Below the pieces are notes generated by a model, which was given only the letters and a program-made list of their open reading frames with translations, made no database searches and had not been told where the DNA came from. 64,000 nt of DNA. It comes from Escherichia phage EscoHU1. Below, one piece after another: positions 319 to 7,739 of the stretch (position 1 is its first letter; the number at the start of each line of letters is the position of its first letter). The position numbers were made by a program, and so were the translations under genes. The stretch lies in the sequence record NC_133119.1; one strand, written 5' to 3'.

Positions 319-336
319 ACAAATTCCTTTAAATTG

Positions 337-412
337 GTTGACCGTCTGGGATTCGAACCCAGAACCTACGAGGTAAAAGCTCGGTACTCTTATCCAGTTG
401 AGTTAACGGTCA
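337..412 (-). tRNA. tRNA-Lys (anticodon UUU)
   Basis: Minus-strand cloverleaf: acceptor TTGACCG/CGGTCAA, T-arm CTGGG-TTCGAAT-CCCAG, anticodon loop CTTTTAC. Confidence 0.55.
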
Positions 413-600
413 ATTTAATACATGTATACTTCTTTAATAGAGTAGACTTTCAAGTAAGGATGATTAATACCAAATTCCGCCATCACTTCGTTTTCATCTT
501 TACCGTAGTGCGCTAGTGGATACTTCTTACGATCTTTGCTAGAACGTAAATCACTTACCTTTAAACGAAATAATTTCATTTCGAAATCCTTCTATTAAAT

Positions 601-678
601 TGGAAGCGGGTGCAGGAATCGAACCTACCTCTTTCTAGCTTATGAGACTAGCGATCTCTACCAGAGATCTAACCCGCA
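601..678 (-). tRNA. tRNA-Met (anticodon CAU; 1:72 unpaired, could be initiator-like)
   Basis: T-loop TTCGATT, anticodon stem CTAGT/GCTAG with loop CTCATAA, acceptor GCGGGT/ACCCGC with position 1 unpaired, encoded CCA. Confidence 0.5.
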
Positions 679-684
679 ATTATT

Positions 685-761
685 TGGTCTCCAATGAAGG
701 ACTCGAACCTTCAACCCCACCGCCCCAAACGGTGTACTCTAGCCAATTGAGCTAATCGGAG
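685..761 (-). tRNA. tRNA-Pro (anticodon UGG)
   Basis: Acceptor CTCCGAT/ATTGGAG, anticodon stem CACCG/CGGTG with loop TTTGGGG, T-arm GAAGG-TTCGAGT-CCTTC, CCA. Confidence 0.6.
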
Positions 762-978
762 AATATTCTTTGTTAACTCACTTTATAAAATATATTATAC
801 AGACATTTAAGTATAATAGCAAATGAGTTTTTAATAAATTTACTTATTGCGTAGGCCACCTGGAGGGTTCAAGCCCCACGGCTGACAAAGAAGTTTGCGA
901 GACTTCTCTTAAATGCCAGAATAGACCCGCCGATCTATCGGAACCTACTCGATAAGTAAACTTTCATTTACTTACTTA

Positions 979-1365
979 TTATGTGCTGTGTATTTCTCGA
1001 TGACAATTCGCACACACTAAAATACATTTCTGTAATTCTTCTCTCAGCTTATCCCTGGAAATACCAGAGGATCTGAATTGACTAATATTATAGTCTTTTG
1101 AGTTTTCATCAATATGATGAAAATCCAGAGCTTGTTTGCATTTATTATACCCACAAATAGAACATTCTAATATAGGGAAGTATTCTGCAATAATAGAATC
1201 AACAGTTTCACGTCTTTTTGCATTTTCGCTAATCTTACATGTTGGCTTCCACTTTTGTTTACCCGAGGGATATATTCCATTAGTATAGAAATATTCCTTG
1301 GTTAGTGGGTGTTCCACACCACAGTTTTTACAAAACTTGTATTCCATAGCTCCTCGAACAGTCAA
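979..1365 (-). CDS. HNH homing endonuclease
   Basis: 128 aa ORF with N-terminal CxxC zinc motifs and C-terminal HH...N...CANCH HNH signature; sits between tRNA genes. Confidence 0.7.
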   Translation of the reverse strand: MTVRGAMEYKFCKNCGVEHPLTKEYFYTNGIYPSGKQKWKPTCKISENAKRRETVDSIIAEYFPILECSICGYNKCKQALDFHHIDENSKDYNISQFRSSGISRDKLREELQKCILVCANCHREIHST

Positions 1366-1491
1366 TCTAGGCAGGACTTGAACCTGCTATCACTTGTGCG
1401 GATTTACGAGAACCATTCTTTCACTCGAATCGAACGAGCTTCTACCCTCGGCAAGCTGGTGCCCCCTCTCCACCACGCTAGAATGTTTATT

Positions 1492-1567
1492 TGGTACACC
1501 CACTAGGACTTGAACCTAGAACCCTCCGCTTAAGAGGCGGTAGCTCTAACCATTGAGCTATGGATGT
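1492..1567 (-). tRNA. tRNA, anticodon read as CUU (Lys); tentative
   Basis: T-arm CTAGG-TTCAAGT-CCTAG, acceptor ACATCCA/TGGGTGT with one G-U, loop CTCTTAA, encoded CCA. Confidence 0.45.
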
Positions 1568-1570
1568 ATA

Positions 1571-1660
1571 TTAGTCCATTGTACATCTACAAAAGAAACC
1601 CCATTTACCGCAGTGTGGACACTGTCCTCCAGAGTTTCTAGCAAAGGATTTGAACTTCAT
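1571..1660 (-). CDS. small Cys-rich peptide (about 29 aa), hypothetical
   Basis: Below ORF-track size cutoff; hand translation MKFKSFARNSGGQCPHCGKWGFFCRCTMD with AAGGAG RBS 7 nt upstream. Confidence 0.3.
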   Translation of the reverse strand: MKFKSFARNSGGQCPHCGKWGFFCRCTMD

Positions 1661-1678
1661 TCAACACTCCTTTAAAGT

Positions 1679-1755
1679 TGGCGCGACCGATGGGATTCGA
1701 ACCCACATTCTCTCCCGTGACAGGGGAGTACCATTACCAAGCCAGCCCCGATCGC
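1679..1755 (-). tRNA. tRNA-Asp (anticodon GUC)
   Basis: Acceptor GCGATCG/CGGTCGC, anticodon stem CTCCC/GGGAG with loop CTGTCAC, T-arm GTGGG-TTCGAAT-CCCAT, CCA. Confidence 0.6.
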
Positions 1756-1764
1756 ATAATTTGT

Positions 1765-1950
1765 TTACTCAGCTTTGAGTTTTTCGATAGCTTCCTTAAC
1801 CTCTTTTAGAGCTTCACGACGTGCATTCTGTTGCTGCATATCTTGTATTAACGTCAGTTTTTGGTTTTCAATTTCTTGATCCCAGACCTTAATATTATTA
1901 ATTAGATTATCACGATCAGCTTCTAGTCGAGCAATTGCACGAGTTGTCAT
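1765..1950 (-). CDS. hypothetical coiled-coil protein
   Basis: 61 aa ORF between tRNAs, charged heptad-like sequence. Confidence 0.45.
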   Translation of the reverse strand: MTTRAIARLEADRDNLINNIKVWDQEIENQKLTLIQDMQQQNARREALKEVKEAIEKLKAE

Positions 1951-1977
1951 ATCTATTTCCTCAGTTGTTAATGAAAT

Positions 1978-2060
1978 TGGCGGGCCGTGTAGGATTCGAA
2001 CCTACGTTGTCTTTCGACATGGATTAACAGTCCACCGCCAAACCGCTTGGCTAACGACCC
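1978..2060 (-). tRNA. tRNA with anticodon GUU (Asn) and an unusually long variable arm
   Basis: Acceptor GGGTCGT/ACGGCCC, D-stem GCCA/TGGC, anticodon stem GTGGA/TCCAT with loop CTGTTAA, variable GTCGAAAGAC mini-hairpin, T-arm GTAGG-TTCGAAT-CCTAC, CCA. Confidence 0.45.
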
Positions 2061-2067
2061 TAAAATT

Positions 2068-2143
2068 TGGACGACCGCATGAGATTCGAACTCACATAAG
2101 GAGGTTTTGCAGGCCTCCGCCTAAGCCATTCAGCCAACGGTCG
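2068..2143 (-). tRNA. tRNA, anticodon read as GCA (Cys); tentative
   Basis: Acceptor CGACCGT/GCGGTCG, T-arm GTGAG-TTCGAAT-CTCAT, loop CTGCAAA, CCA. Confidence 0.45.
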
Positions 2144-2321
2144 ATTTATCTTGTTTTTCGAGATCAACGAACTCTAAATCGTTGAAGTCTCCTAGAGTAC
2201 GGGAGTAATAACCGTCTCCAGCATCATAGCCTGATTTACCACACTTACACATCTTAAACTCACGTAGACGTGTAAAGATATGTTCAGAGCCACAACACTT
2301 AAATTTAACTAACTTTTTCAT
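2130..2321 (-). CDS. hypothetical zinc-ribbon protein
   Basis: 63 aa ORF with CC...H...C.C cysteine pattern. Confidence 0.45.
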   Translation of the reverse strand: MKKLVKFKCCGSEHIFTRLREFKMCKCGKSGYDAGDGYYSRTLGDFNDLEFVDLEKQDKSTVG

Positions 2322-2560
2322 CCAACACGCTCCGGTAAATCTTCGAGTTTATATTGAGTAGCCACATTAGCAGCATCTAGTAACAAACCCATATGTTTAA
2401 GAATTCTAGTGATAGCCTCGCCTTCTGCTTCTTCTACAAAGCAACGTAGTTGCATGAAGTCAATACCACCATCCATACCAGAGAAAATGTTAAGTAAGCG
2501 AAGCATTACCAGCTTACGTTCTTTTAATTCTTGTTCTGTCATGTTGCTTCTCCAGTTCAA
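2318..2560 (-). CDS. hypothetical protein
   Basis: 80 aa ORF with promoter cassette immediately upstream (2572-2600). Confidence 0.45.
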   Translation of the reverse strand: MNWRSNMTEQELKERKLVMLRLLNIFSGMDGGIDFMQLRCFVEEAEGEAITRILKHMGLLLDAANVATQYKLEDLPERVG

Positions 2561-2592
2561 TTTATGTAATAATTATACAGAACTTTAAGCGG

Positions 2593-2880
2593 TTAAGCAA
2601 CTACATTTTTCAGAAATATGATGCCTTTCTTTTTCTTCTTATATTTCCATGTTAATGGATTCTGTCGATTATGAACGCTTGAGATCTTTGTCTCGTCAAA
2701 GTTCTTCAGTACCATGTAATCACAGGCCAACTGTTCCAGTGGGATGTGATCTCCGTCAAAAGCATAAACATAAGGCTGTTGACTGGCACGATAATGATAT
2801 ACTTTGTTAATTCTGCGTTTCAGTGACTTATCCGCACAGTAAATAAAGAAGTTTTCAGGATGCATCAGCATCTCCTTCAA
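2593..2880 (-). CDS. hypothetical protein
   Basis: 95 aa ORF in minus-strand early region. Confidence 0.45.
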   Translation of the reverse strand: MKEMLMHPENFFIYCADKSLKRRINKVYHYRASQQPYVYAFDGDHIPLEQLACDYMVLKNFDETKISSVHNRQNPLTWKYKKKKKGIIFLKNVVA

Positions 2881-2883
2881 ATT

Positions 2884-2958
2884 GGTGCACCCCGTTGGTA
2901 ACGATCCAACCTCTCAAGCTCTTCAGGCAAGCGCTAATCCATCTCAGCTAAAGGTGCA
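2884..2958 (-). tRNA. tRNA-like sequence with non-canonical T-loop; anticodon unresolved (possibly GAA)
   Basis: Acceptor GCACCTT/GGGGTGC plus CCA and T-stem GTTGG/CCAAC, but T-loop ATCGTTA and weak anticodon stem. Confidence 0.3.
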
Positions 2959-2963
2959 AATAT

Positions 2964-3041
2964 TGGCAAACCTACTAGGACTCGAACCTAGACCGTACGG
3001 TTTTGGAGACCGACATGCTGTCCAGTAACACTCTAGGGATG
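2964..3041 (-). tRNA. tRNA, anticodon loop CTCCAAA (Trp, CCA); acceptor pairing not verified
   Basis: T-arm CTAGG-TTCGAGT-CCTAG and anticodon arm CGGT-CTCCAAA-ACCG resemble tRNA-Trp; 5' acceptor strand could not be paired by eye. Confidence 0.35.
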
Positions 3042-3048
3042 CAGAAAT

Positions 3049-3125
3049 TGGCGTCCTGTGCGGGGATCGAACCCGCAAATCCTACCTTGAAAGGGTAGTG
3101 ACTTTACCAGTTTGTCTAACAGGAC
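3049..3125 (-). tRNA. tRNA-Glu (anticodon UUC)
   Basis: Perfect acceptor GTCCTGT/ACAGGAC, anticodon stem CTACC/GGTAG with loop CTTTCAA, T-arm GCGGG-TTCGATC-CCCGC, CCA. Confidence 0.65.
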
Positions 3126-3132
3126 TTAAATT

Positions 3133-3223
3133 TGGTGTTGGATGATGGAGTCGAACCACCCGAGACCCTTCCGAGTCGGCAGATTTACAGTCTGCTTCGC
3201 TACCTCTACGATACTAATCCAAC
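3133..3223 (-). tRNA. tRNA-Tyr (anticodon GUA), long variable arm
   Basis: Acceptor GTTGGAT/ATCCAAC, anticodon stem GCAGA/TCTGC with loop CTGTAAA, long variable arm, T-loop TTCGACT, CCA. Confidence 0.55.
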
Positions 3224-3413
3224 ATATTTGAATGAAAAGTAAGTCGGTTAAACTCAAGGTGGAATATTTCAGGAAATCCTGACTTTACCCCTAAAAGCAA
3301 CTCGCTTAGTTACTTCTCATTCAGATATGTTTTCCAAATTAGATAACTATTATACCAAGTTTTGAAGGACTGAGCAAGTCAAATTTTAAAGAACTTGCTC
3401 AGTGCTATATCAG

Positions 3414-3689
3414 TTACTCGAAGCTAGGAGTGACACTCAGTTTGAATGGAAGCTCGAACACTTCTTCATAATCATCATTGAGCGTAATTACACGACCTTC
3501 TAGCTTAGTCATGGTGATTTCGATATCAGCCCTTGCATCAGGAGCCATACCAGCTTCCACACATTTAGCTTTGACTTCCGGCAGAAGTTCTACATCGTAG
3601 AAATAAAGCCATTCAATCTCACCCTCCCAGCCACCCCAGGATTTACAAACAGCACTTTCAACACCAGTTGCAGTAACACGTTTTGACAT
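3414..3689 (-). CDS. hypothetical protein
   Basis: 91 aa ORF, promoter cassette at 3720-3749. Confidence 0.5.
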   Translation of the reverse strand: MSKRVTATGVESAVCKSWGGWEGEIEWLYFYDVELLPEVKAKCVEAGMAPDARADIEITMTKLEGRVITLNDDYEEVFELPFKLSVTPSFE

Positions 3690-3719
3690 TCGTTAACCCC
3701 TTCATCAATTTATATAACT

Positions 3720-3749
3720 ATTATATCAGAAATCTTAAGTAAAAAGCAA
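3720..3749 (-). promoter_or_regulatory. T5-type early promoter (-35 TTGCTT, -10 TATAAT)
   Basis: Reverse complement gives TTGCTT, 18-nt spacer, TATAAT, followed by the conserved AT-rich leader. Confidence 0.5.
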
Positions 3750-3779
3750 GTACATTTTTAAAATTTCTGCTTGGAGGAG

Positions 3780-4052
3780 TTAAACTCCTGATTCTTCAGC
3801 CAGATCAAGCCCAACCAACGTGATTGCCATAATAGCTGCGCCATGTTCTTTCTCTCCTAGCTCTTTGGCTTGAGTGAGAATATTGAGGAATTGCTTTTGA
3901 AAATCTGCAACTTCTTCTGTCATGCCTGCTTCAGCAATAATTCCTTTCAGCATAAAGCGTTGTGCTGTAATTTCAGGATTAGCCATTTGTTTTCTCCAGT
4001 TATTTAGAATGTAAGCCAAACTTAGGATCATAGCGATCGTAAGTCGTACCAT
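3780..4052 (-). CDS. hypothetical protein
   Basis: 90 aa ORF. Confidence 0.45.
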   Translation of the reverse strand: MVRLTIAMILSLAYILNNWRKQMANPEITAQRFMLKGIIAEAGMTEEVADFQKQFLNILTQAKELGEKEHGAAIMAITLVGLDLAEESGV

Positions 4053-4136
4053 TAGTTGAAGCCTTGATGCTATGAAAACGACAGTACATAAATTTACGTA
4101 GTGCTTTCTTAATAGCTTTCATTTTATTTCCTTAAT

Positions 4137-4214
4137 TTGGTAGGGGTGGTGGGATTCGAACCCACAAAACCCGAATTTTAAGTCCGGTACCTATGCCAAT
4201 TCGATTACACCCCC
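4137..4214 (-). tRNA. tRNA with anticodon UAA (Leu-type anticodon) but short variable loop
   Basis: Acceptor GGGGGTG/CACCCCT, anticodon stem CCGGA/TTCGG with loop CTTAAAA, 5-nt variable loop, T-arm GTGGG-TTCGAAT-CCCAC, CCA. Confidence 0.45.
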
Positions 4215-4223
4215 ATGTAATCT

Positions 4224-4571
4224 TTAGAGTTCGTAACCCTGAATATATCGAGCAAAACCAGTAATCTCGAACTGAATTGCCCATGCTACTTCCATATGCT
4301 CAATCTTACTAAAATGAGCGTCAGACTGTTCTAGGAAATAACGAGAGATTATAGGGAACTCAATGTCAAAATCTTCCTTATCCATACCATAGAAGAAGTT
4401 TCCAGAAATATTACGAACTTCACGAAAGAAATCCTCAATCTGAAAATCCATCAGAGGATAAGTATATTCCTCTTTGCTATCATCCGTTTGGAAGAAGCGG
4501 AAATGCACAAGGCAAGAGCCAATCAGATTTACTGCTGGAGTAGTGTAAATATCCATGTTAACCTCGATCAA
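4224..4571 (-). CDS. hypothetical protein
   Basis: 115 aa ORF. Confidence 0.5.
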   Translation of the reverse strand: MIEVNMDIYTTPAVNLIGSCLVHFRFFQTDDSKEEYTYPLMDFQIEDFFREVRNISGNFFYGMDKEDFDIEFPIISRYFLEQSDAHFSKIEHMEVAWAIQFEITGFARYIQGYEL

Positions 4572-4743
4572 TATCTAGAGAAATTCCAAATTCTGGATTA
4601 ATACCAGAACCATTACATGCTGCACATTCCCACTCTTCAAAACGCATATCGCCAGGTTCAGCATCATTAATAGTACCTGTTCCATGGCAGTGAGCACACA
4701 TGCACTCTTCTAGTTCTTGTTTAAGCTCTTGAAACTTAGACAT
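4558..4743 (-). CDS. hypothetical zinc-ribbon protein
   Basis: 61 aa ORF with two CxxC pairs (CAHCHG...CAAC). Confidence 0.5.
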   Translation of the reverse strand: MSKFQELKQELEECMCAHCHGTGTINDAEPGDMRFEEWECAACNGSGINPEFGISLDIDRG

Positions 4744-4760
4744 ATAGTCTCCTAGTTAAT

Positions 4761-4838
4761 TGGTGGCTCCCGGAGGATTCGAACCTACCTACCTTTCGCT
4801 TATGAGGCGACGGCTCATACCAAATGAGCTTGAGAACC
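4761..4838 (-). tRNA. tRNA with anticodon CAU (Met or lysidine-Ile)
   Basis: Acceptor GGTTCTC/GGGAGCC with G-U pairs, anticodon loop CTCATAA, T-loop TTCGAAT, CCA. Confidence 0.5.
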
Positions 4839-4843
4839 AAATT

Positions 4844-4937
4844 TGGAGGAAGATGCCAGACTCGAACTGGCACACCGTGTCTCCACAGCTACTGGCTGTT
4901 TAGCAAACAGCTCCCTTACCTTTAGGGTTAATCTTCC
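4844..4937 (-). tRNA. tRNA-Ser (anticodon GCU), type II
   Basis: Acceptor GGAAGAT/ATCTTCC, anticodon stem GCTGT/ACAGC with loop TTGCTAA, long variable arm, T-arm GCCAG-TTCGAGT-CTGGC, CCA. Confidence 0.55.
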
Positions 4938-4951
4938 AAATTTATGAATAT

Positions 4952-4980
4952 ATTATATTAGAAATTTAGCTTCATGGCAA
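4952..4980 (-). promoter_or_regulatory. T5-type promoter positioned to transcribe the downstream tRNA cluster
   Basis: Reverse complement TTGCCA-17-TATAAT; predicted start about 8 nt upstream of the tRNA-Ser 5' end. Confidence 0.5.
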
Positions 4981-5431
4981 GAAAATTTTTCAAGTTTTCT
5001 GTATTCATTTCATCTAAATCCATGAGGGAAGTAAACCCATTTAGTTTTTTAGCAAACTTCTCACCAGCAGAATCATTATCGCCTACGGCTACTACTTTAA
5101 AAGGTTGTAATTTTAGCTGCTTTAGCAATGCTTTGCTAGGGGAAGATCCTAGCATTGCTAGTGCGGGATATCCCGCGTTGTGTAGTGCCACAGCTTTAAA
5201 TACAGATTCTGCAACTAATACTAGGTCTTCATTACCTGTAAGAGTTTCTAAACCCCATAGACATTGAGTAGAAGAATGCGTAAAATATTTAGCTTCAGAA
5301 GGACATTTTCCATGACCTTTAGCTGCACTAGGGTTATATGTTTGATATCCACGTAACATGCCAGAGAAATCATACAGTGGAACTGTTAACCATCCATGTG
5401 GAGAGCCAACAGTGATACTTACCACTATCAA
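4958..5431 (-). CDS. Toprim-like domain protein; start unresolved (possible frameshift with upstream 34-codon ORF)
   Basis: 157 aa ORF with VLVAES...VVAVGDNDSAGEKFAKKL (Toprim-like E and DxD motifs); first codon in frame is TTG with no RBS; an RBS-preceded ATG ORF at 5369-5473 overlaps in another frame. Confidence 0.45.
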   Translation of the reverse strand: MIVVSITVGSPHGWLTVPLYDFSGMLRGYQTYNPSAAKGHGKCPSEAKYFTHSSTQCLWGLETLTGNEDLVLVAESVFKAVALHNAGYPALAMLGSSPSKALLKQLKLQPFKVVAVGDNDSAGEKFAKKLNGFTSLMDLDEMNTENLKNFLAMKLNF

Positions 5432-5505
5432 AGCCCCTAGATAAAAGATGTTGTTTTAACTCGTCAACAGTCATATATGACTCCTATCTATAATTTATAG
5501 AATAT

Positions 5506-5534
5506 ATTATATAGAAAATTTCGGCATTAAGCAA
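5506..5534 (-). promoter_or_regulatory. T5-type early promoter
   Basis: Reverse complement TTGCTT-17-TATAAT. Confidence 0.5.
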
Positions 5535-5542
5535 GTGAAATT

Positions 5543-5839
5543 TTACTGAACACTGCACTGATACACTTGTTTGATACGTGTCACTGACTTCTTAGTTGGA
5601 TTGATAGAAGAACCTTGCCACCAACGTGATTCTGAGCTGAGAACAGCACCAGGAACAGCTTGTTCTTTTGGCAGAACAATATCAAAACATTGCTCACCCA
5701 TATTATCTTTAATGTGTGACCAAATATCCAAAGTAAATCGTTCTAACTTATTACAAACCTGAACTTGACAAAGTTCCTGTTGCGGAGCAGCAAATACAGA
5801 AGTAGATACTAGAGTCAATGCAAGTACAATGCGTTTCAT
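5543..5839 (-). CDS. secreted/periplasmic Cys-containing protein, hypothetical
   Basis: 98 aa ORF with N-terminal signal peptide MKRIVLALTLVSTSVFAAP and several cysteines. Confidence 0.5.
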   Translation of the reverse strand: MKRIVLALTLVSTSVFAAPQQELCQVQVCNKLERFTLDIWSHIKDNMGEQCFDIVLPKEQAVPGAVLSSESRWWQGSSINPTKKSVTRIKQVYQCSVQ

Positions 5840-5945: not shown

Positions 5946-6638
5946 TTATTTGTTAACGCGTACAAAGTATCCTTTATAGGCTCCAAGAATGGAGTTACCT
6001 AAGAATACTAGCCACATTGCTAGGATTGCATAAGATGCACCTGTAGATTGAGCAGTTACAAGCCAAATGTATACAGTACCAATGTTAATAGCAATCCAGA
6101 TCAGCCATTGTTCAGCATATTGCTTGACCATAAGCCACATAGCAATCACACTACCAACCGCAGTAAATGCATCGAGCATCGGGAATGGATCAGCTGTAGT
6201 AGCAAGGAAGCTACCGTAACCTAAAGTAGCTACTGCTAGAACCCCTAGAGTCAGCAAAGCTTGGGCTTTAGTCAGAATCTTAGTTGGAACATCTGGCAGA
6301 TTACTTGGCTTATTTTTATGCCATAAGTACATTCCGTAGAACTGCATAGGAACGTAGTACAATAGGTTTAATGCTGCGTTACCATAAAGATCTGCATTTA
6401 AAGCTGTAATACCATAGGTAAGAACACCAACTAAGCCCCAAATATAGTTGGAAACGCGTCCTTTTGCAACCAAAATAACACAAACTACGTTGGTTATCGC
6501 AGTAGCCCAATCTAGAGGTGTACCATTATAGTTAGCTAAACTAATGAAGGCAACCGCTATGAACAGCCACAGATATTCCAGAGGTTTCCAGTTTTTAAAG
6601 TCATTTACGAGATAGTTAGTCATATTAAAACTCTCCAA
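5946..6638 (-). CDS. pnuC: nicotinamide riboside transporter PnuC-like membrane protein
   Basis: About 230 aa, multi-pass hydrophobic protein with W/Y-rich helices resembling PnuC; overlaps and follows the NadR-like gene. Confidence 0.65.
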   Translation of the reverse strand: MESFNMTNYLVNDFKNWKPLEYLWLFIAVAFISLANYNGTPLDWATAITNVVCVILVAKGRVSNYIWGLVGVLTYGITALNADLYGNAALNLLYYVPMQFYGMYLWHKNKPSNLPDVPTKILTKAQALLTLGVLAVATLGYGSFLATTADPFPMLDAFTAVGSVIAMWLMVKQYAEQWLIWIAINIGTVYIWLVTAQSTGASYAILAMWLVFLGNSILGAYKGYFVRVNK

Positions 6639-7680
6639 CGTTAAAGTGATGAATCAGCCAGTCTACTGCGTTTACTGCTTCGTCCATACGAACTTTGTAG
6701 TCCGGGGAGTCGATGTAAACAGTACGCCCTTCAGGGAACTGATTTGGAAATTCTTTCTTCATCTGCTCGAACAGTTCAGAAGTAATTGAACGATCGGAGT
6801 TAATACGTAAACCATCATCTACCCACTTGACAGTAGGCGCTAGAACAATTACTAAATCGTAATGTTCTTCTTTTGCAATTGCTGTAACCACAGGGTTCTT
6901 ACGATGTTCATAAAGTCTGTGGTAGAACTCAGTAATAAAAGCATTTGTATCCACAAACATGATCTTATTTGCAGTACGTTCTGCTTCAAATTCTAGCTCT
7001 TTGTGTCTGAACGCAATTTTACTATAATCTTCGCTGGTAAGCAGATTTTCGTTACCAACTAGATCAACTTCACAATACGTTCGGCCATATTCTTCTACCC
7101 ACGAAGTGTTGTATAGCTTCGCAAGGTATTTTGTTAAAGTAGTCTTTCCCGAGCTTTCAGTCCCAATGATTACAACCTTACGCACGTAATCTTTACGAAC
7201 TACGCTAGGAAGAAACTCCCAATACTTCATAAGATCATTACGAATCATTGTAGCTGAGATTGGAACACGAGTCCGATCAGAATCTACAATATAATGACCA
7301 AACTTCGGCAGATATTTCTTATATTCTGCATCATAGTCTAGTTCGCTAGAGAAAATGGTGATCTCAGGCAAATGTCCATAATTTTCATTAAGGATTCTAG
7401 CATATTCCGGCCAACCATTCGGATATTCAGGAATATCATCTTCAATAATGTACTCTACCGAAACGTGCTCAATATCCGCGTAAGTTTGTTCTAACCAACG
7501 AAGTCGATTCTTTAACTGTAATACTTCCTGATCACGTGTGTTCTGCTTATCCAGCCAACGATTATCATGACTAACTACAACAATAACTCGTTCACACATA
7601 GTTGCTGCTGTGTTTATTAGGTTAATATGACCACGCGTTAATGGTGCGAACTTACCAATTACTAGACCAGTCTTAATCAT
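6625..7680 (-). CDS. nadR: NadR-like bifunctional NMN adenylyltransferase / ribosylnicotinamide kinase
   Basis: N-terminal GKFAPLTRGH (nucleotidyltransferase HxGH-type motif) and central P-loop GTESSGKTT; start taken at MIKTGLVIGKF with RBS. Confidence 0.7.
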   Translation of the reverse strand: MIKTGLVIGKFAPLTRGHINLINTAATMCERVIVVVSHDNRWLDKQNTRDQEVLQLKNRLRWLEQTYADIEHVSVEYIIEDDIPEYPNGWPEYARILNENYGHLPEITIFSSELDYDAEYKKYLPKFGHYIVDSDRTRVPISATMIRNDLMKYWEFLPSVVRKDYVRKVVIIGTESSGKTTLTKYLAKLYNTSWVEEYGRTYCEVDLVGNENLLTSEDYSKIAFRHKELEFEAERTANKIMFVDTNAFITEFYHRLYEHRKNPVVTAIAKEEHYDLVIVLAPTVKWVDDGLRINSDRSITSELFEQMKKEFPNQFPEGRTVYIDSPDYKVRMDEAVNAVDWLIHHFNVGEF

Positions 7681-7710
7681 ATTTGATTCCTCTCTCAAAT
7701 TTATAAATAT

Positions 7711-7739
7711 ATTATACAGAGAATTTAGCATTCAAGCAA
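7711..7739 (-). promoter_or_regulatory. T5-type early promoter upstream of the NadR-like gene
   Basis: Reverse complement TTGCTT-17-TATAAT with conserved leader ...CATAAATTTGAGAGAGG. Confidence 0.5.

What the first reader, a model, noticed from the sequence alone, without database searches (positions are those of the whole stretch)
4958..5473. Toprim-like gene without a conventional start, overlapped by an RBS-led short ORF in another frame
The 157-aa Toprim-like ORF has TTG as its first in-frame start and no RBS, with an in-frame TAA just upstream. A well-placed RBS (TAGGAG) precedes an ATG at about 5471-5473 opening a 34-codon ORF (MTVDELKQHLLSRGFDSGKYHCWLSTWMVNSSTV) that overlaps the Toprim frame. 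This looks like a frameshifted gene: a pseudogene, a programmed frameshift, or a sequencing indel near 5370-5435.
Basis: seen in the sequence. Interest (0 to 1): 0.45.

Follow-up and report, generated by a model that had tools for sequence, protein, structure and literature searches.

The report
Frameshift-broken phage anti-retron gene rad
The two overlapping reading frames are one gene, the T5-family anti-retron gene rad (mislabelled "DNA primase" in databases), broken by loss of a single CT unit from a short CTCTCTC run; this is an ordinary inactivating mutation (or, less likely, an assembly error), not programmed recoding.

Summary
On the minus strand, an RBS-led 34-codon ORF (5474-5370) overlaps a start-less Toprim ORF (5431-4958) in the +1 frame. 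The window is a T5-like Epseptimavirus.

Nearly all relatives carry one uninterrupted 172-aa ORF here. These include T5 itself (T5.076, which is ORF071 of AY587007), 29 of 30 close alleles and 24 of 26 IMG/VR loci. The window lacks one CT of CTCTCTC (now CTCTCC, 5405-5400). Re-inserting CT restores a full 172-aa protein.

The gene is rad ("retron anti-defense", Azam et al. 2023). It encodes a DnaG-like Toprim protein reported to lower retron ncRNA and msDNA. It is not a primase. The break separates N-terminal residues 1-25, including the functionally tested R13, from the Toprim core, so loss of function is expected.

A programmed frameshift is rejected. More distant orthologues encode the same junction peptide (WLSP) in one frame with different codons and no CT repeat.

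An artefact is possible but unlikely. This is the only frame-split ORF in the window, and an independent record (S.Kent 1-2-1) has the same deletion.

Other T5-like lineages break rad elsewhere (L11*, E83*, +A), or are reported to have deleted the region that holds it, so it is a dispensable anti-defence gene.

Side finding: rad homologues in 22 of 22 Erwinia/Serratia jumbo-phage loci show a conserved +1 frame split.

The parts
4958..5474 (-). The whole disrupted rad gene (retron anti-defense; orthologue of T5.076 / ORF071). It is 517 nt here against 519 nt in intact relatives.
   Evidence: Inserting CT restores a 172-aa ORF that differs from bombadil Rad only by D18G.
5506..5534 (-). Early promoter, homologous to T5 promoter P15a: TTGCTT (5534-5529), 17-nt spacer, TATAAT (5511-5506).
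   Evidence: The alignment with the annotated T5 P15a region and with bombadil shows the hexamers conserved. The strict consensus scan misses it because the -35 hexamer matches only 3 of 6 positions.
5481..5486 (-). Shine-Dalgarno sequence TAGGAG, 6 nt upstream of the rad ATG.
   Evidence: Read from the sequence. Identical in bombadil and S.Kent 1-2-1.
5370..5474 (-). ORF1: native Rad codons 1-25 (with D18G), then 9 out-of-frame codons (TWMVNSSTV) and TGA.
5400..5405 (-). The lesion: CTCTCC where intact close alleles have CTCTCTCC. One CT unit is lost, which shifts reading to the +1 frame.
   Evidence: Alignment; BLAST indel list (2-bp deletion at 5406 relative to bombadil); regex check.
5422..5422 (-). 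Private SNP (G in the window, A in relatives). It changes codon 18 from GAT (Asp) to GGT (Gly).
   Evidence: None of the 30 close alleles carries it.
4958..5431 (-). Downstream Toprim reading frame. Native Rad residues 25-172 span 5404-4961 and include E90, D133/D135 and E156. There is no native start. Possible weak restarts are GTG 5425 (SD-like AGGGG 8 nt upstream), TTG 5431, and ATG 5359 (10 nt after the ORF1 stop).
   Evidence: The restart sites are read from the sequence; their use is inferred and untested.
4952..4980 (-). Promoter-like site TTGCCA-17-TATAAT overlapping the 3' end of rad. By position it corresponds to T5 promoter P15b, which drives the downstream tRNAs.
   Evidence: 11 of 12 consensus matches; T5 annotation.
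4761..4937 (-). tRNA-Ser(GCT) 4844-4937 and tRNA-Met(CAT) 4761-4838, immediately downstream. This is the same synteny as in T5 and bombadil.

Best explanation
The window is from a T5-like Salmonella/Escherichia phage (Demerecviridae, Epseptimavirus). Positions 5474-4958 on the minus strand hold the gene rad (retron anti-defense; T5.076 / ORF071). Rad is a 172-aa standalone DnaG-like Toprim protein. It is expressed from an early P15a-type promoter, in the tRNA-rich 'anti-defence island'.

In this genome one CT unit of a (CT)3C run at codons 24-26 has been lost, most simply by replication slippage. Ribosomes that start at the intact RBS and ATG therefore read 25 native codons plus 9 aberrant ones, and stop at TGA 5372-5370. 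The remaining 148 native codons sit in the +1 frame without a proper initiation signal.

Any restart product would lack the N-terminal helix, which carries the family-invariant residues H9, L10 and R13. R13E alone lowers Rad activity. The allele is therefore predicted to be null or strongly hypomorphic.

Shown here: the deletion, the intact single ORF in orthologues, the gene's identity, the fold, and the conservation of the N-terminus.
Taken from the literature: Rad counteracts retrons and lowers their ncRNA and msDNA.
Inferred: the slippage origin, the loss of function, and the resulting retron sensitivity of this phage.
For: 1. Single-ORF orthologues. Bombadil and S126 have one 172-aa ORF. 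T5 itself does too. 29 of 30 close alleles carry CTCTCTC. 24 of 26 T5-like IMG/VR loci are intact at 172 aa. 522 of 529 phage records cover at least 80% of the protein.

2. Exact lesion. A 2-bp CT loss. tblastn splits the match at residue 25 between two frames.

3. Probably real rather than noise. This is the only frame-split ORF among 33-54 conserved ORFs compared with two relatives. The same deletion is present in an independent record, OR850873 S.Kent 1-2-1, which differs by a SNP 17 nt away and is only about 97% identical overall.

4. Recent event. The promoter, RBS and ATG are intact, and the downstream 148 codons are 100% identical to bombadil.

5. Identity as rad. PMC10644984 states that T5 ORF071, the 'primase' with a TOPRIM domain, is Rad. 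AY587007 shows that ORF at this syntenic spot. The residues Azam et al. mutated (R13, P33, I88, D135, E156) map exactly onto this protein.

6. The N-terminus matters. H9, L10 and R13 are invariant across 19 homologues down to 35% identity. In the AF2 model (pLDDT 94.4), residues 3-12 form a helix and 30-47 a hairpin, both ordered parts of the fold.

7. The gene is dispensable and often lost. Independent lesions are L11* (saus132 lineage), E83* (L025) and +A (L029). Published reports describe a ~4-kb deletion in BF23 and ~8-kb deletions in T5n and SP15m.
Against: - No reads are available, so an assembly or consensus error cannot be excluded.
- The only other carrier, S.Kent 1-2-1, is an 'UNVERIFIED_ORG' record.
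- The deleted junction was not found in IMG/VR, in JGI metagenomes, or in the large gene-product index.
- Loss of function is inferred from conservation and from published point mutants. It was not measured for this truncation.
- An SD-like AGGGG lies 8 nt before an in-frame GTG (5425), and an ATG lies 10 nt after the ORF1 stop. Either could give some N-terminally truncated protein.
- The Rad mechanism rests on one preprint.
Confidence: 0.79

Rival explanations
1. Sequencing or assembly artefact. The real phage has CTCTCTC and an intact rad gene, and the 2-bp loss arose during consensus calling.
For: The deleted allele is rare: 1 of 30 close alleles, and absent from IMG/VR, metagenomes and the gene-product index. 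The other carrier is an unverified SPAdes contig. Everything else about the gene is pristine.
Against: The window shows no other frame-split ORF relative to two relatives, so it is not a noisy assembly. A 2-bp loss in a three-unit dinucleotide run is not a typical homopolymer-type platform error. Two different genomes, about 97% identical and differing by a SNP 17 nt away, carry the identical deletion.
Confidence: 0.12
2. The allele still works. An N-terminally truncated Toprim protein, made from GTG 5425, TTG 5431 or ATG 5359 by restart or translational coupling after ORF1, retains anti-retron activity, possibly together with the 34-aa peptide.
For: The 148 downstream codons are intact with all Toprim acidic residues. 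SD-like AGGGG lies 8 nt before GTG 5425, and ATG 5359 lies 10 nt after the ORF1 stop. The saus132 lineage, isolated repeatedly, also carries an N-terminal lesion (L11*) with an intact Toprim part and is annotated from the internal ATG. Jumbo-phage homologues are encoded in two pieces.
Against: H9, L10 and R13 are invariant across the family. R13E and P33T each reduce Rad activity, and double mutants abolish it. The N-terminal helix and hairpin are ordered parts of a compact predicted fold. Lesions in other lineages fall in the Toprim core as well (E83*, +A at codon 139), which fits plain dispensability better. The jumbo-phage split lies at a different position (about residue 78).
Confidence: 0.07
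3. Programmed +1 ribosomal frameshift, or a reversible slippage switch. Full-length Rad is made by recoding at the CTC TCC A site, or the CT tract toggles the gene on and off.
For: The frame change is in the +1 direction, as in the conserved split of jumbo-phage homologues and in the overlapping primase ORFs of cluster-A mycobacteriophages. The same deletion appears in two genomes.
Against: Orthologues have a single ORF. T5-type genes encode WLSP as TGG TTA AGT CCG with no CT repeat, so no recoding signal is conserved. CTC TCC ACA has no known +1 shift-prone codon, stop or rare codon. Two or three CT units are far below the tract lengths of contingency loci, and only the 3-unit and 2-unit states were seen. 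The shared 884-bp bombadil-type block allows a single origin.
Confidence: 0.02

Closest known systems
[quoted passage not shown]
   Same: Same syntenic position: early promoter, then the gene, then tRNA-Ser and tRNA-Met, inside the tRNA-rich anti-defence island. About 85% amino-acid identity to T5.076. The same conserved residues R13, P33, I/V88, D135 and E156. The same 172-aa length once CT is restored.
   Different: Here the ORF is interrupted after codon 25 by a 2-bp deletion, so full-length Rad cannot be made by standard translation. There is one private substitution, D18G. The preprint gives 189 aa for phiSP15 Rad, although its residue numbering fits the 172-aa form.
DnaG / T7 gp4 / Twinkle primase catalytic cores
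   Same: The predicted fold matches the Toprim half of the primase RNA-polymerase domain. Foldseek gives 1dde/1eqn at E about 5e-6 (TMq 0.63), 1nui at TMq 0.69 and Twinkle 7t8c at E=3.7e-6. The Toprim Glu and the DxD motif are conserved.
   Different: No zinc-binding domain, no full N-terminal subdomain and no helicase-interaction domain. It covers only about 0.37 of the DnaG core (TMt). TIGR01391 scores 20.9 bits against a cut-off of 283.6. The database name 'DNA primase' is an over-annotation.
Other natural rad-loss alleles in T5-like phages
   Same: Loss or inactivation of the same anti-defence gene: L11* in the saus132 lineage, E83* in L025, +A frameshift in L029. The literature also reports a ~4-kb deletion in BF23 and ~8-kb deletions in T5n and SP15m.
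   Different: A different lesion and site in each case. Only S.Kent 1-2-1 shares the CT deletion.
Split or overlapping primase-domain ORFs proposed to need recoding (Bxb1 gp50/gp51, PMC12646305), and the jumbo-phage rad homologues seen here
   Same: The same protein superfamily, encoded in two overlapping frames with a +1 offset.
   Different: In those clades the two-frame arrangement is conserved and both parts are under purifying selection (dN/dS 0.15 and 0.11). It also lies at other positions in the gene. In the window's clade the single ORF is the conserved state.
RNase M5 (Toprim ribonuclease)
   Same: A small Toprim protein acting on RNA. It is a weaker structural match (6z2b, E about 1e-3, TMt 0.71) and a functional analogy for the proposed RNA-degrading activity.
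   Different: Only the Toprim domain aligns. The N-terminal part of Rad is DnaG-like. No sequence-level family membership.

Membership tests
Rad (retron anti-defense) family of T5-like phages | Orthology and synteny with T5.076 / ORF071 (P15a promoter, gene, tRNA-Ser, tRNA-Met) | tested here: met
   The link from ORF071 to Rad comes from PMC10644984.
Rad (retron anti-defense) family of T5-like phages | Conserved residues shown by mutagenesis to matter (R13, P33, I88, D135, E156) | tested here: met
   All are encoded (V88 instead of I88, as in bombadil), but R13 lies in ORF1 and the others in the +1 frame.
Rad (retron anti-defense) family of T5-like phages | One uninterrupted ORF of about 165-187 aa | tested here: not met
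   The ORF is split after codon 25 by a 2-bp deletion. It is therefore a disrupted allele of the family, not a functional member as it stands.
Rad (retron anti-defense) family of T5-like phages | Neutralises retron defence and lowers retron ncRNA and msDNA | not testable with these tools
   Needs plating assays on retron-carrying hosts and RNA measurements.
DnaG-type DNA primase (the database annotation) | CHC2 zinc-binding domain | tested here: not met
   No PF01807 hit on the intact orthologues at E<=1. Only the most distant hits, P0021 and P0022 (281-330 aa), have it.
DnaG-type DNA primase (the database annotation) | Complete RNA-polymerase domain, scoring as dnaG | tested here: not met
   TIGR01391 scores 20.9 bits against a cut-off of 283.6. 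The model covers only about 37% of the DnaG core (TMt).
DnaG-type DNA primase (the database annotation) | Toprim domain with the catalytic Glu and DxD motif | tested here: met
   PF13155 scores 31.4 bits (cut-off 22.1) and PF01751 scores 25.0 bits (cut-off 23.1). E90 is nearly invariant and D135 invariant across 19 homologues. D133 is conserved among the T5-like sequences and is present here.
Programmed ribosomal frameshift site | The two-frame arrangement is conserved among orthologues | tested here: not met
   A single ORF in 29 of 30 close alleles, in 24 of 26 IMG/VR loci and in T5.
Programmed ribosomal frameshift site | A shift-prone motif conserved at the nucleotide level | tested here: not met
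   T5-type orthologues encode the junction as TGG TTA AGT CCG. The CT run is specific to the bombadil-type allele.
Simple-sequence contingency (phase-variable) locus | A long repeat tract with many length alleles in a population | tested here: not met
   Only 3 units, or 2 in the window and S.Kent 1-2-1. S126 has the run interrupted (CTCTCCCC).

The most novel reading that the evidence does not exclude
The short CT run in bombadil-type rad alleles is a recurrent slippage hot-spot. The identical deletion arose independently in the window's phage and in S.Kent 1-2-1, giving a quasi-reversible on/off switch for an anti-retron gene. Rad might be costly, or even a trigger, on some hosts. Alternatively, the truncated two-piece product might retain function, by analogy with the naturally split jumbo-phage homologues.
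Probability: 0.05. Interest if true: 0.55.

Novelty: already known. Interest (0 to 1): 0.15.

Why it matters
For the window itself this matters mainly for annotation. The two ORFs should be annotated as one disrupted rad (anti-retron) gene, not as 'DNA primase' plus a hypothetical peptide. The phage is then predicted to be sensitive to the retrons that Rad neutralises, which is relevant if the phage is considered for host-range prediction or therapy.

More generally, the repeated independent inactivation of rad (four different lesions found here, plus deletions reported in the literature) supports the picture that anti-defence island genes are conditionally dispensable and turn over quickly.

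The by-product may be of more interest. rad homologues in Erwinia and Serratia jumbo phages are always encoded in two frames joined at an invariant GAAATT, with both halves under purifying selection. That is a candidate conserved +1 recoding event in an anti-defence gene, and I found no report of it.

Tried and rejected
1. Programmed frameshift in the window: rejected on comparative grounds.

2. Noisy assembly: I tested ORFs of two relatives against the window by tblastn, and only this gene is split. The indel list against the relatives shows mostly paired, intergenic or mosaic-border indels.

3. An apparent inverted duplication in S.Kent 1-2-1 was my own error. The file L039.fa holds two records, and the analysis was redone.

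4. Shared descent versus recurrence of the deletion: the SNP table shows an 884-bp bombadil-type block shared by the window and S.Kent 1-2-1, with one private SNP. Neither scenario can be excluded.

5. A search for more carriers of the deleted junction found none. I tried IMG/VR with exact patterns for both alleles, JGI metagenomes with a pattern accepting both alleles, and exact-product look-ups of the 34-, 133- and 157-aa products. The intact bombadil-type junction was also absent from IMG/VR and the metagenomes, so these negatives say little.

6. A sequence search of solved structures gave only chance xylanase hits. The fold search was needed.

7. Literature searches for later work on the Rad mechanism found nothing beyond the 2023 preprint.

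8. An RNA structure downstream of the jumbo-phage shift site gave a weak signal (about 2.5 sd better than column shuffles) that is not shared across genera, so I did not pursue it.

9. The consensus promoter scan misses the P15a-type promoter because its -35 hexamer is TTGCTT. Homology to the annotated T5 promoter was used instead.

Full report
OBSERVATION

The feature lies on the minus strand. A Shine-Dalgarno TAGGAG (5486-5481) sits 6 nt before an ATG at 5474-5472. That ATG opens a 34-codon ORF (MTVDELKQHLLSRGFDSGKYHCWLSTWMVNSSTV) ending at TGA 5372-5370. A 157-codon ORF (5431-4958) overlaps it in the +1 frame. Its first possible start is TTG, and an in-frame TAA lies at 5458-5456. This longer ORF matches Pfam Toprim_2 (E=2.3e-7) and Toprim (E=1.8e-5), both above their gathering scores.

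WHAT GENOME THIS IS

The window is a T5-like phage (Demerecviridae, Markadamsvirinae, Epseptimavirus). The 661-bp region matches 405 phage records. The first 25 kb match Salmonella phages Stitch, Seabear and Sw2 at about 96% identity, with no record at 99% or above, so the exact genome is not in the collection.

THE LESION

The closest relatives span 663 bp where the window has 661 bp. In bombadil (NC_048866) and S126 the region is annotated as one CDS of 519 nt, 172 aa, beginning with the same MTVDELKQHLLSRGFDSDKYHCWLSPHGWLTVPLYDF.

The alignment shows that relatives read TGG CTC TCT CCA CAT, while the window reads TGGCTCTCCACAT. One CT unit of CTCTCTC has been lost, leaving CTCTCC at 5405-5400. 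Re-inserting CT gives a 172-aa protein that differs from bombadil's only by D18G, a private SNP at 5422. tblastn of the intact protein against the window splits at residue 25. Residues 1-25 match in one frame (96%) and residues 25-172 match in the other (100%).

IS THE SINGLE ORF THE NORM?

Yes.
- Of 30 close alleles found with an 81-nt probe centred on the site, 29 have the extra CT.
- Of 26 T5-like loci from IMG/VR, 24 have an uninterrupted 172-aa ORF.
- tblastn finds the protein in 529 phage records, and 522 of them cover at least 80% of it, including T5 itself (T5.076, 84.9% identity).

The more distant T5-type genes encode the junction peptide WLSP(E)GW as TGG TTA AGT CCG GAA GG, with no CT repeat. 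The amino-acid sequence across the break is therefore conserved in one frame while the nucleotides differ. That is the opposite of what a programmed frameshift site would show, so programmed recoding in the window is rejected.

REAL MUTATION OR ARTEFACT?

Reads are not available, but three points favour a real mutation.

First, the window is otherwise clean. I searched every ORF of at least 70 aa from two relatives (bombadil and S.Kent 1-2-1) against the window. Among the 33 and 54 ORFs that matched at more than 85% identity, this was the only one split between frames.

Second, a 2-bp loss in a three-unit dinucleotide run is not a typical platform error.

Third, an independent record, OR850873 (Salmonella phage S.Kent 1-2-1, wastewater, Turkey), has the identical deletion. 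That genome is only about 97% identical to the window overall and differs at a SNP 17 nt from the deletion.

The SNP table shows that S.Kent 1-2-1 equals the bombadil allele plus the deletion. The window shares an 884-bp bombadil-type block (about 5745-4862) with one private SNP plus the deletion. Single origin followed by recombination, or recurrent slippage, are both possible.

The deleted junction was not found in IMG/VR, in JGI metagenomes, or as exact gene products in the large assembly index. The intact bombadil-type junction was also absent from the first two, so these negatives carry little weight. I put the artefact reading at about 0.12.

WHAT THE GENE IS

RefSeq calls it 'DNA primase', but that rests only on a Toprim match (T5.076 note).
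- The intact protein has no zinc-finger hit and no hit to the N-terminal part of the primase catalytic core in Pfam.
- It scores 20.9 bits against TIGR01391 dnaG, whose cut-off is 283.6.
- Its relatives form a family of standalone proteins of about 165-187 aa.
- An AlphaFold2 model of an intact orthologue (19-sequence alignment) is confident, with mean pLDDT 94.4 and pTM 0.90.
- The model resembles the Toprim half of DnaG, T7 gp4 and Twinkle primase cores (E about 4e-6 to 3e-5, TMq 0.58-0.69). It covers only about 0.37 of the DnaG core. RNase M5's Toprim domain is a weaker hit.

The literature supplies the function. [quoted passage not shown] In AY587007 the CDS between ORF070 and ORF072 is this 172-aa 'DNA primase', immediately upstream of tRNA-Ser and tRNA-Met. 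This is the same synteny as in the window.

Azam et al. (bioRxiv 10.1101/2023.03.15.532788) identified rad as ORF75 of the T5-like phage phiSP15, in a tRNA-rich 'anti-defence island'. They report the following:
- Rad neutralises retrons Ec67, Ec78, Ec83, Ec48 and Se72.
- Rad lowers retron ncRNA and msDNA.
- R13E, P33T, I88T, D135H and E156H each reduce activity, and double mutants abolish it.

Those residue numbers map exactly onto this protein. The preprint's homologue distribution (Proteus, Shigella, Salmonella and many Mycolicibacterium phages) mirrors my tblastn result. One caveat is that the preprint says 189 aa, whereas its numbering fits the 172-aa form. The mechanism (ncRNA degradation) is the authors' proposal in a preprint.

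CONSEQUENCE OF THE LESION

Translation from the intact promoter, RBS and ATG yields Rad residues 1-25 plus nine aberrant residues. The promoter region is identical to bombadil's and homologous to T5 P15a. The Toprim core (E90, D133/D135, E156) is left in the +1 frame without a native start.

Three restart sites are conceivable but untested:
- GTG 5425, with SD-like AGGGG 8 nt upstream
- TTG 5431
- ATG 5359, 10 nt after the ORF1 stop

Any such product would lack the N-terminal helix (residues 3-12 in the model), which carries three of the 14 family-invariant positions (H9, L10, R13). A product from ATG 5359 would also lack the P33 strand. I therefore predict a null or strongly hypomorphic allele. 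Because the regulatory signals and the downstream codons are pristine, the lesion is recent.

WHY THIS IS ORDINARY

rad is an accessory anti-defence gene and is lost repeatedly.
- The saus132 lineage (7 records) has TTA>TAA at codon 11 and is annotated from an internal ATG.
- IMG/VR locus L025 has E83*, and L029 has a +A frameshift in an A-run near codon 139.
- BF23 is reported to lack the region through a ~4-kb deletion.
- T5n and SP15m are reported to have lost the island through ~8-kb deletions during propagation.

The window's allele is one more example. The island's tRNA-Tyr, reported to counter retron Ec78, is still present at 3133-3223.

SIDE FINDING OUTSIDE THE WINDOW

In one search all listed Erwinia jumbo-phage homologues matched in two pieces. 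I examined 3 GenBank loci (Rebecca, pEa_SNUABM_3, Serratia phage KpSz_1) and 19 IMG/VR loci from contigs of 15-287 kb, most above 250 kb. All 22 switch from frame n to frame n+1 at the same place, between W-G-[S/T/L]-E and the catalytic strand VFLTESVFKA.

- An invariant hexamer GAAATT marks the junction.
- Variable positions just upstream are synonymous in the upstream frame.
- Variable positions downstream are synonymous only in the +1 frame.
- In KpSz_1 the +1 frame has a TAG immediately before AAA TTA, which pins the shift to GAA|A|TTA or later.
- In three of the loci there is no ATG, GTG or TTG in the +1 frame before the catalytic Glu.
- Both halves are under purifying selection: median dN/dS is 0.145 and 0.107 at dS of about 1, from 16 distinct sequences.

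This is therefore not a pseudogene. It is either a conserved +1 (or -2) recoding event or a split protein with non-canonical initiation.

In the Alexandravirus-like loci, GGGGA plus a 3-nt spacer precedes GAA. This resembles the prfB layout, but the next codon is AUU, not a stop. No convincing conserved RNA structure was found. PHROGs holds separate small families that match only the N-terminal half (phrog_14043) or only the C-terminal part (phrog_17952) of the protein, which fits such split forms.

Overlapping primase-domain ORFs in cluster-A mycobacteriophages (Bxb1 gp50/51) have been suggested to need frameshifting or bypassing (PMC12646305; BabyRay annotation). My literature search found no report of the jumbo-phage case. 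It lies at a different position from the window's break and does not rescue the recoding reading for the window.

VERDICT

It is a disrupted allele of a known gene, so novelty is 'already known' and interest is low (0.15).

My probabilities are:
- real inactivating 2-bp deletion: about 0.8
- artefact: about 0.12
- functional truncated or two-piece product: about 0.07
- recoding or switch: about 0.02

Noticed in passing
L042-L044 and L046-L064 (e.g. L043:601-1108; junction GAAATT at about L043:829-834): rad homologues in 22 of 22 Erwinia/Serratia jumbo-phage loci are encoded in two frames (n to n+1) joined at an invariant GAAATT, between WG[S/T/L]E and the catalytic VFLTES strand. Both halves are under purifying selection (dN/dS 0.15 and 0.11). 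Three of the loci have no start codon for the second half. This is a candidate conserved +1 recoding event or split protein, and I found no report of it.
   Followed up: partly
window 4958-5474, and RefSeq records such as NC_048866 HWD22_gp156 and NC_005859 T5.076: Across T5-like phages this ORF is annotated 'DNA primase' or 'hypothetical protein'. It lacks the zinc finger and most of the primase core, and according to the literature it is the anti-retron protein Rad. The database name is out of date.
   Followed up: yes
L003 (NC_047884 saus132 and six sister records), codon 11 of rad: An independent nonsense mutation, TTA>TAA (L11*), in a lineage isolated repeatedly from foods. Annotators started the CDS at the internal ATG (133 aa).
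   Followed up: yes
L025:601-1119 and L029:601-1120 (IMG/VR T5-like contigs): Two further independent rad lesions: E83* (GAA>TAA), and a +A frameshift in an A-run at nt 416.
   Followed up: yes
L042 (Erwinia phage Rebecca) 1123-1684; Vibrio phages F97/F91 (H134/H135): In other phage groups, rad homologues sit next to RNA-repair or tRNA genes. In Rebecca the next gene is RtcB-like. In the Vibrio phages the match overlaps a 'tRNA nucleotidyltransferase' annotation. In T5-like phages the gene abuts tRNA genes. This fits an RNA-directed role.
   Followed up: no
window 335-4937: A dense tRNA cluster: 13 tRNA genes in the first 9 kb, all on the minus strand, interspersed with small ORFs. It includes tRNA-Tyr(GTA) at 3133-3223, the element reported to counter retron Ec78, and two tRNA-Lys genes.
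   Followed up: partly
window 4952-4980 (minus strand): A near-consensus sigma-70 promoter (TTGCCA-17-TATAAT, 11 of 12 matches) overlaps the last codons of rad. By position it corresponds to T5 promoter P15b, which drives the downstream tRNAs.
   Followed up: partly
window 5543-5839 (minus strand): The upstream neighbour is a 98-aa ORF with a signal-peptide-like N-terminus (MKRIVLALTLVSTSVFA) and its own T5-type promoter. It is hypothetical in relatives. The window carries five SNPs here relative to bombadil and S.Kent 1-2-1, two of them shared with S126, which marks a mosaic boundary.
   Followed up: no
window 5946-7731 (minus strand): PnuC-like nicotinamide riboside transporter (5946-6638) and NadR-like nicotinamide-nucleotide adenylyltransferase (6625-7731), as annotated in bombadil and Stitch.
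   Followed up: no
L065 (Mycobacterium phage BabyRay) 313-1195: CDSs named 'DNA primase, N-term' and 'DNA primase, C-term' overlap by 185 nt with a +1 offset. The Rad-like region lies wholly in the C-terminal ORF. PMC12646305 proposes frameshifting or bypassing for the equivalent Bxb1 gp50/51.
   Followed up: partly
L039 (OR850873 S.Kent 1-2-1): The only other carrier of the CT deletion is an 'UNVERIFIED_ORG', unannotated SPAdes contig. Sister records from the same series (S.Hadar 4-5-1, S.Inf 5-2) carry the intact junction.
   Followed up: partly
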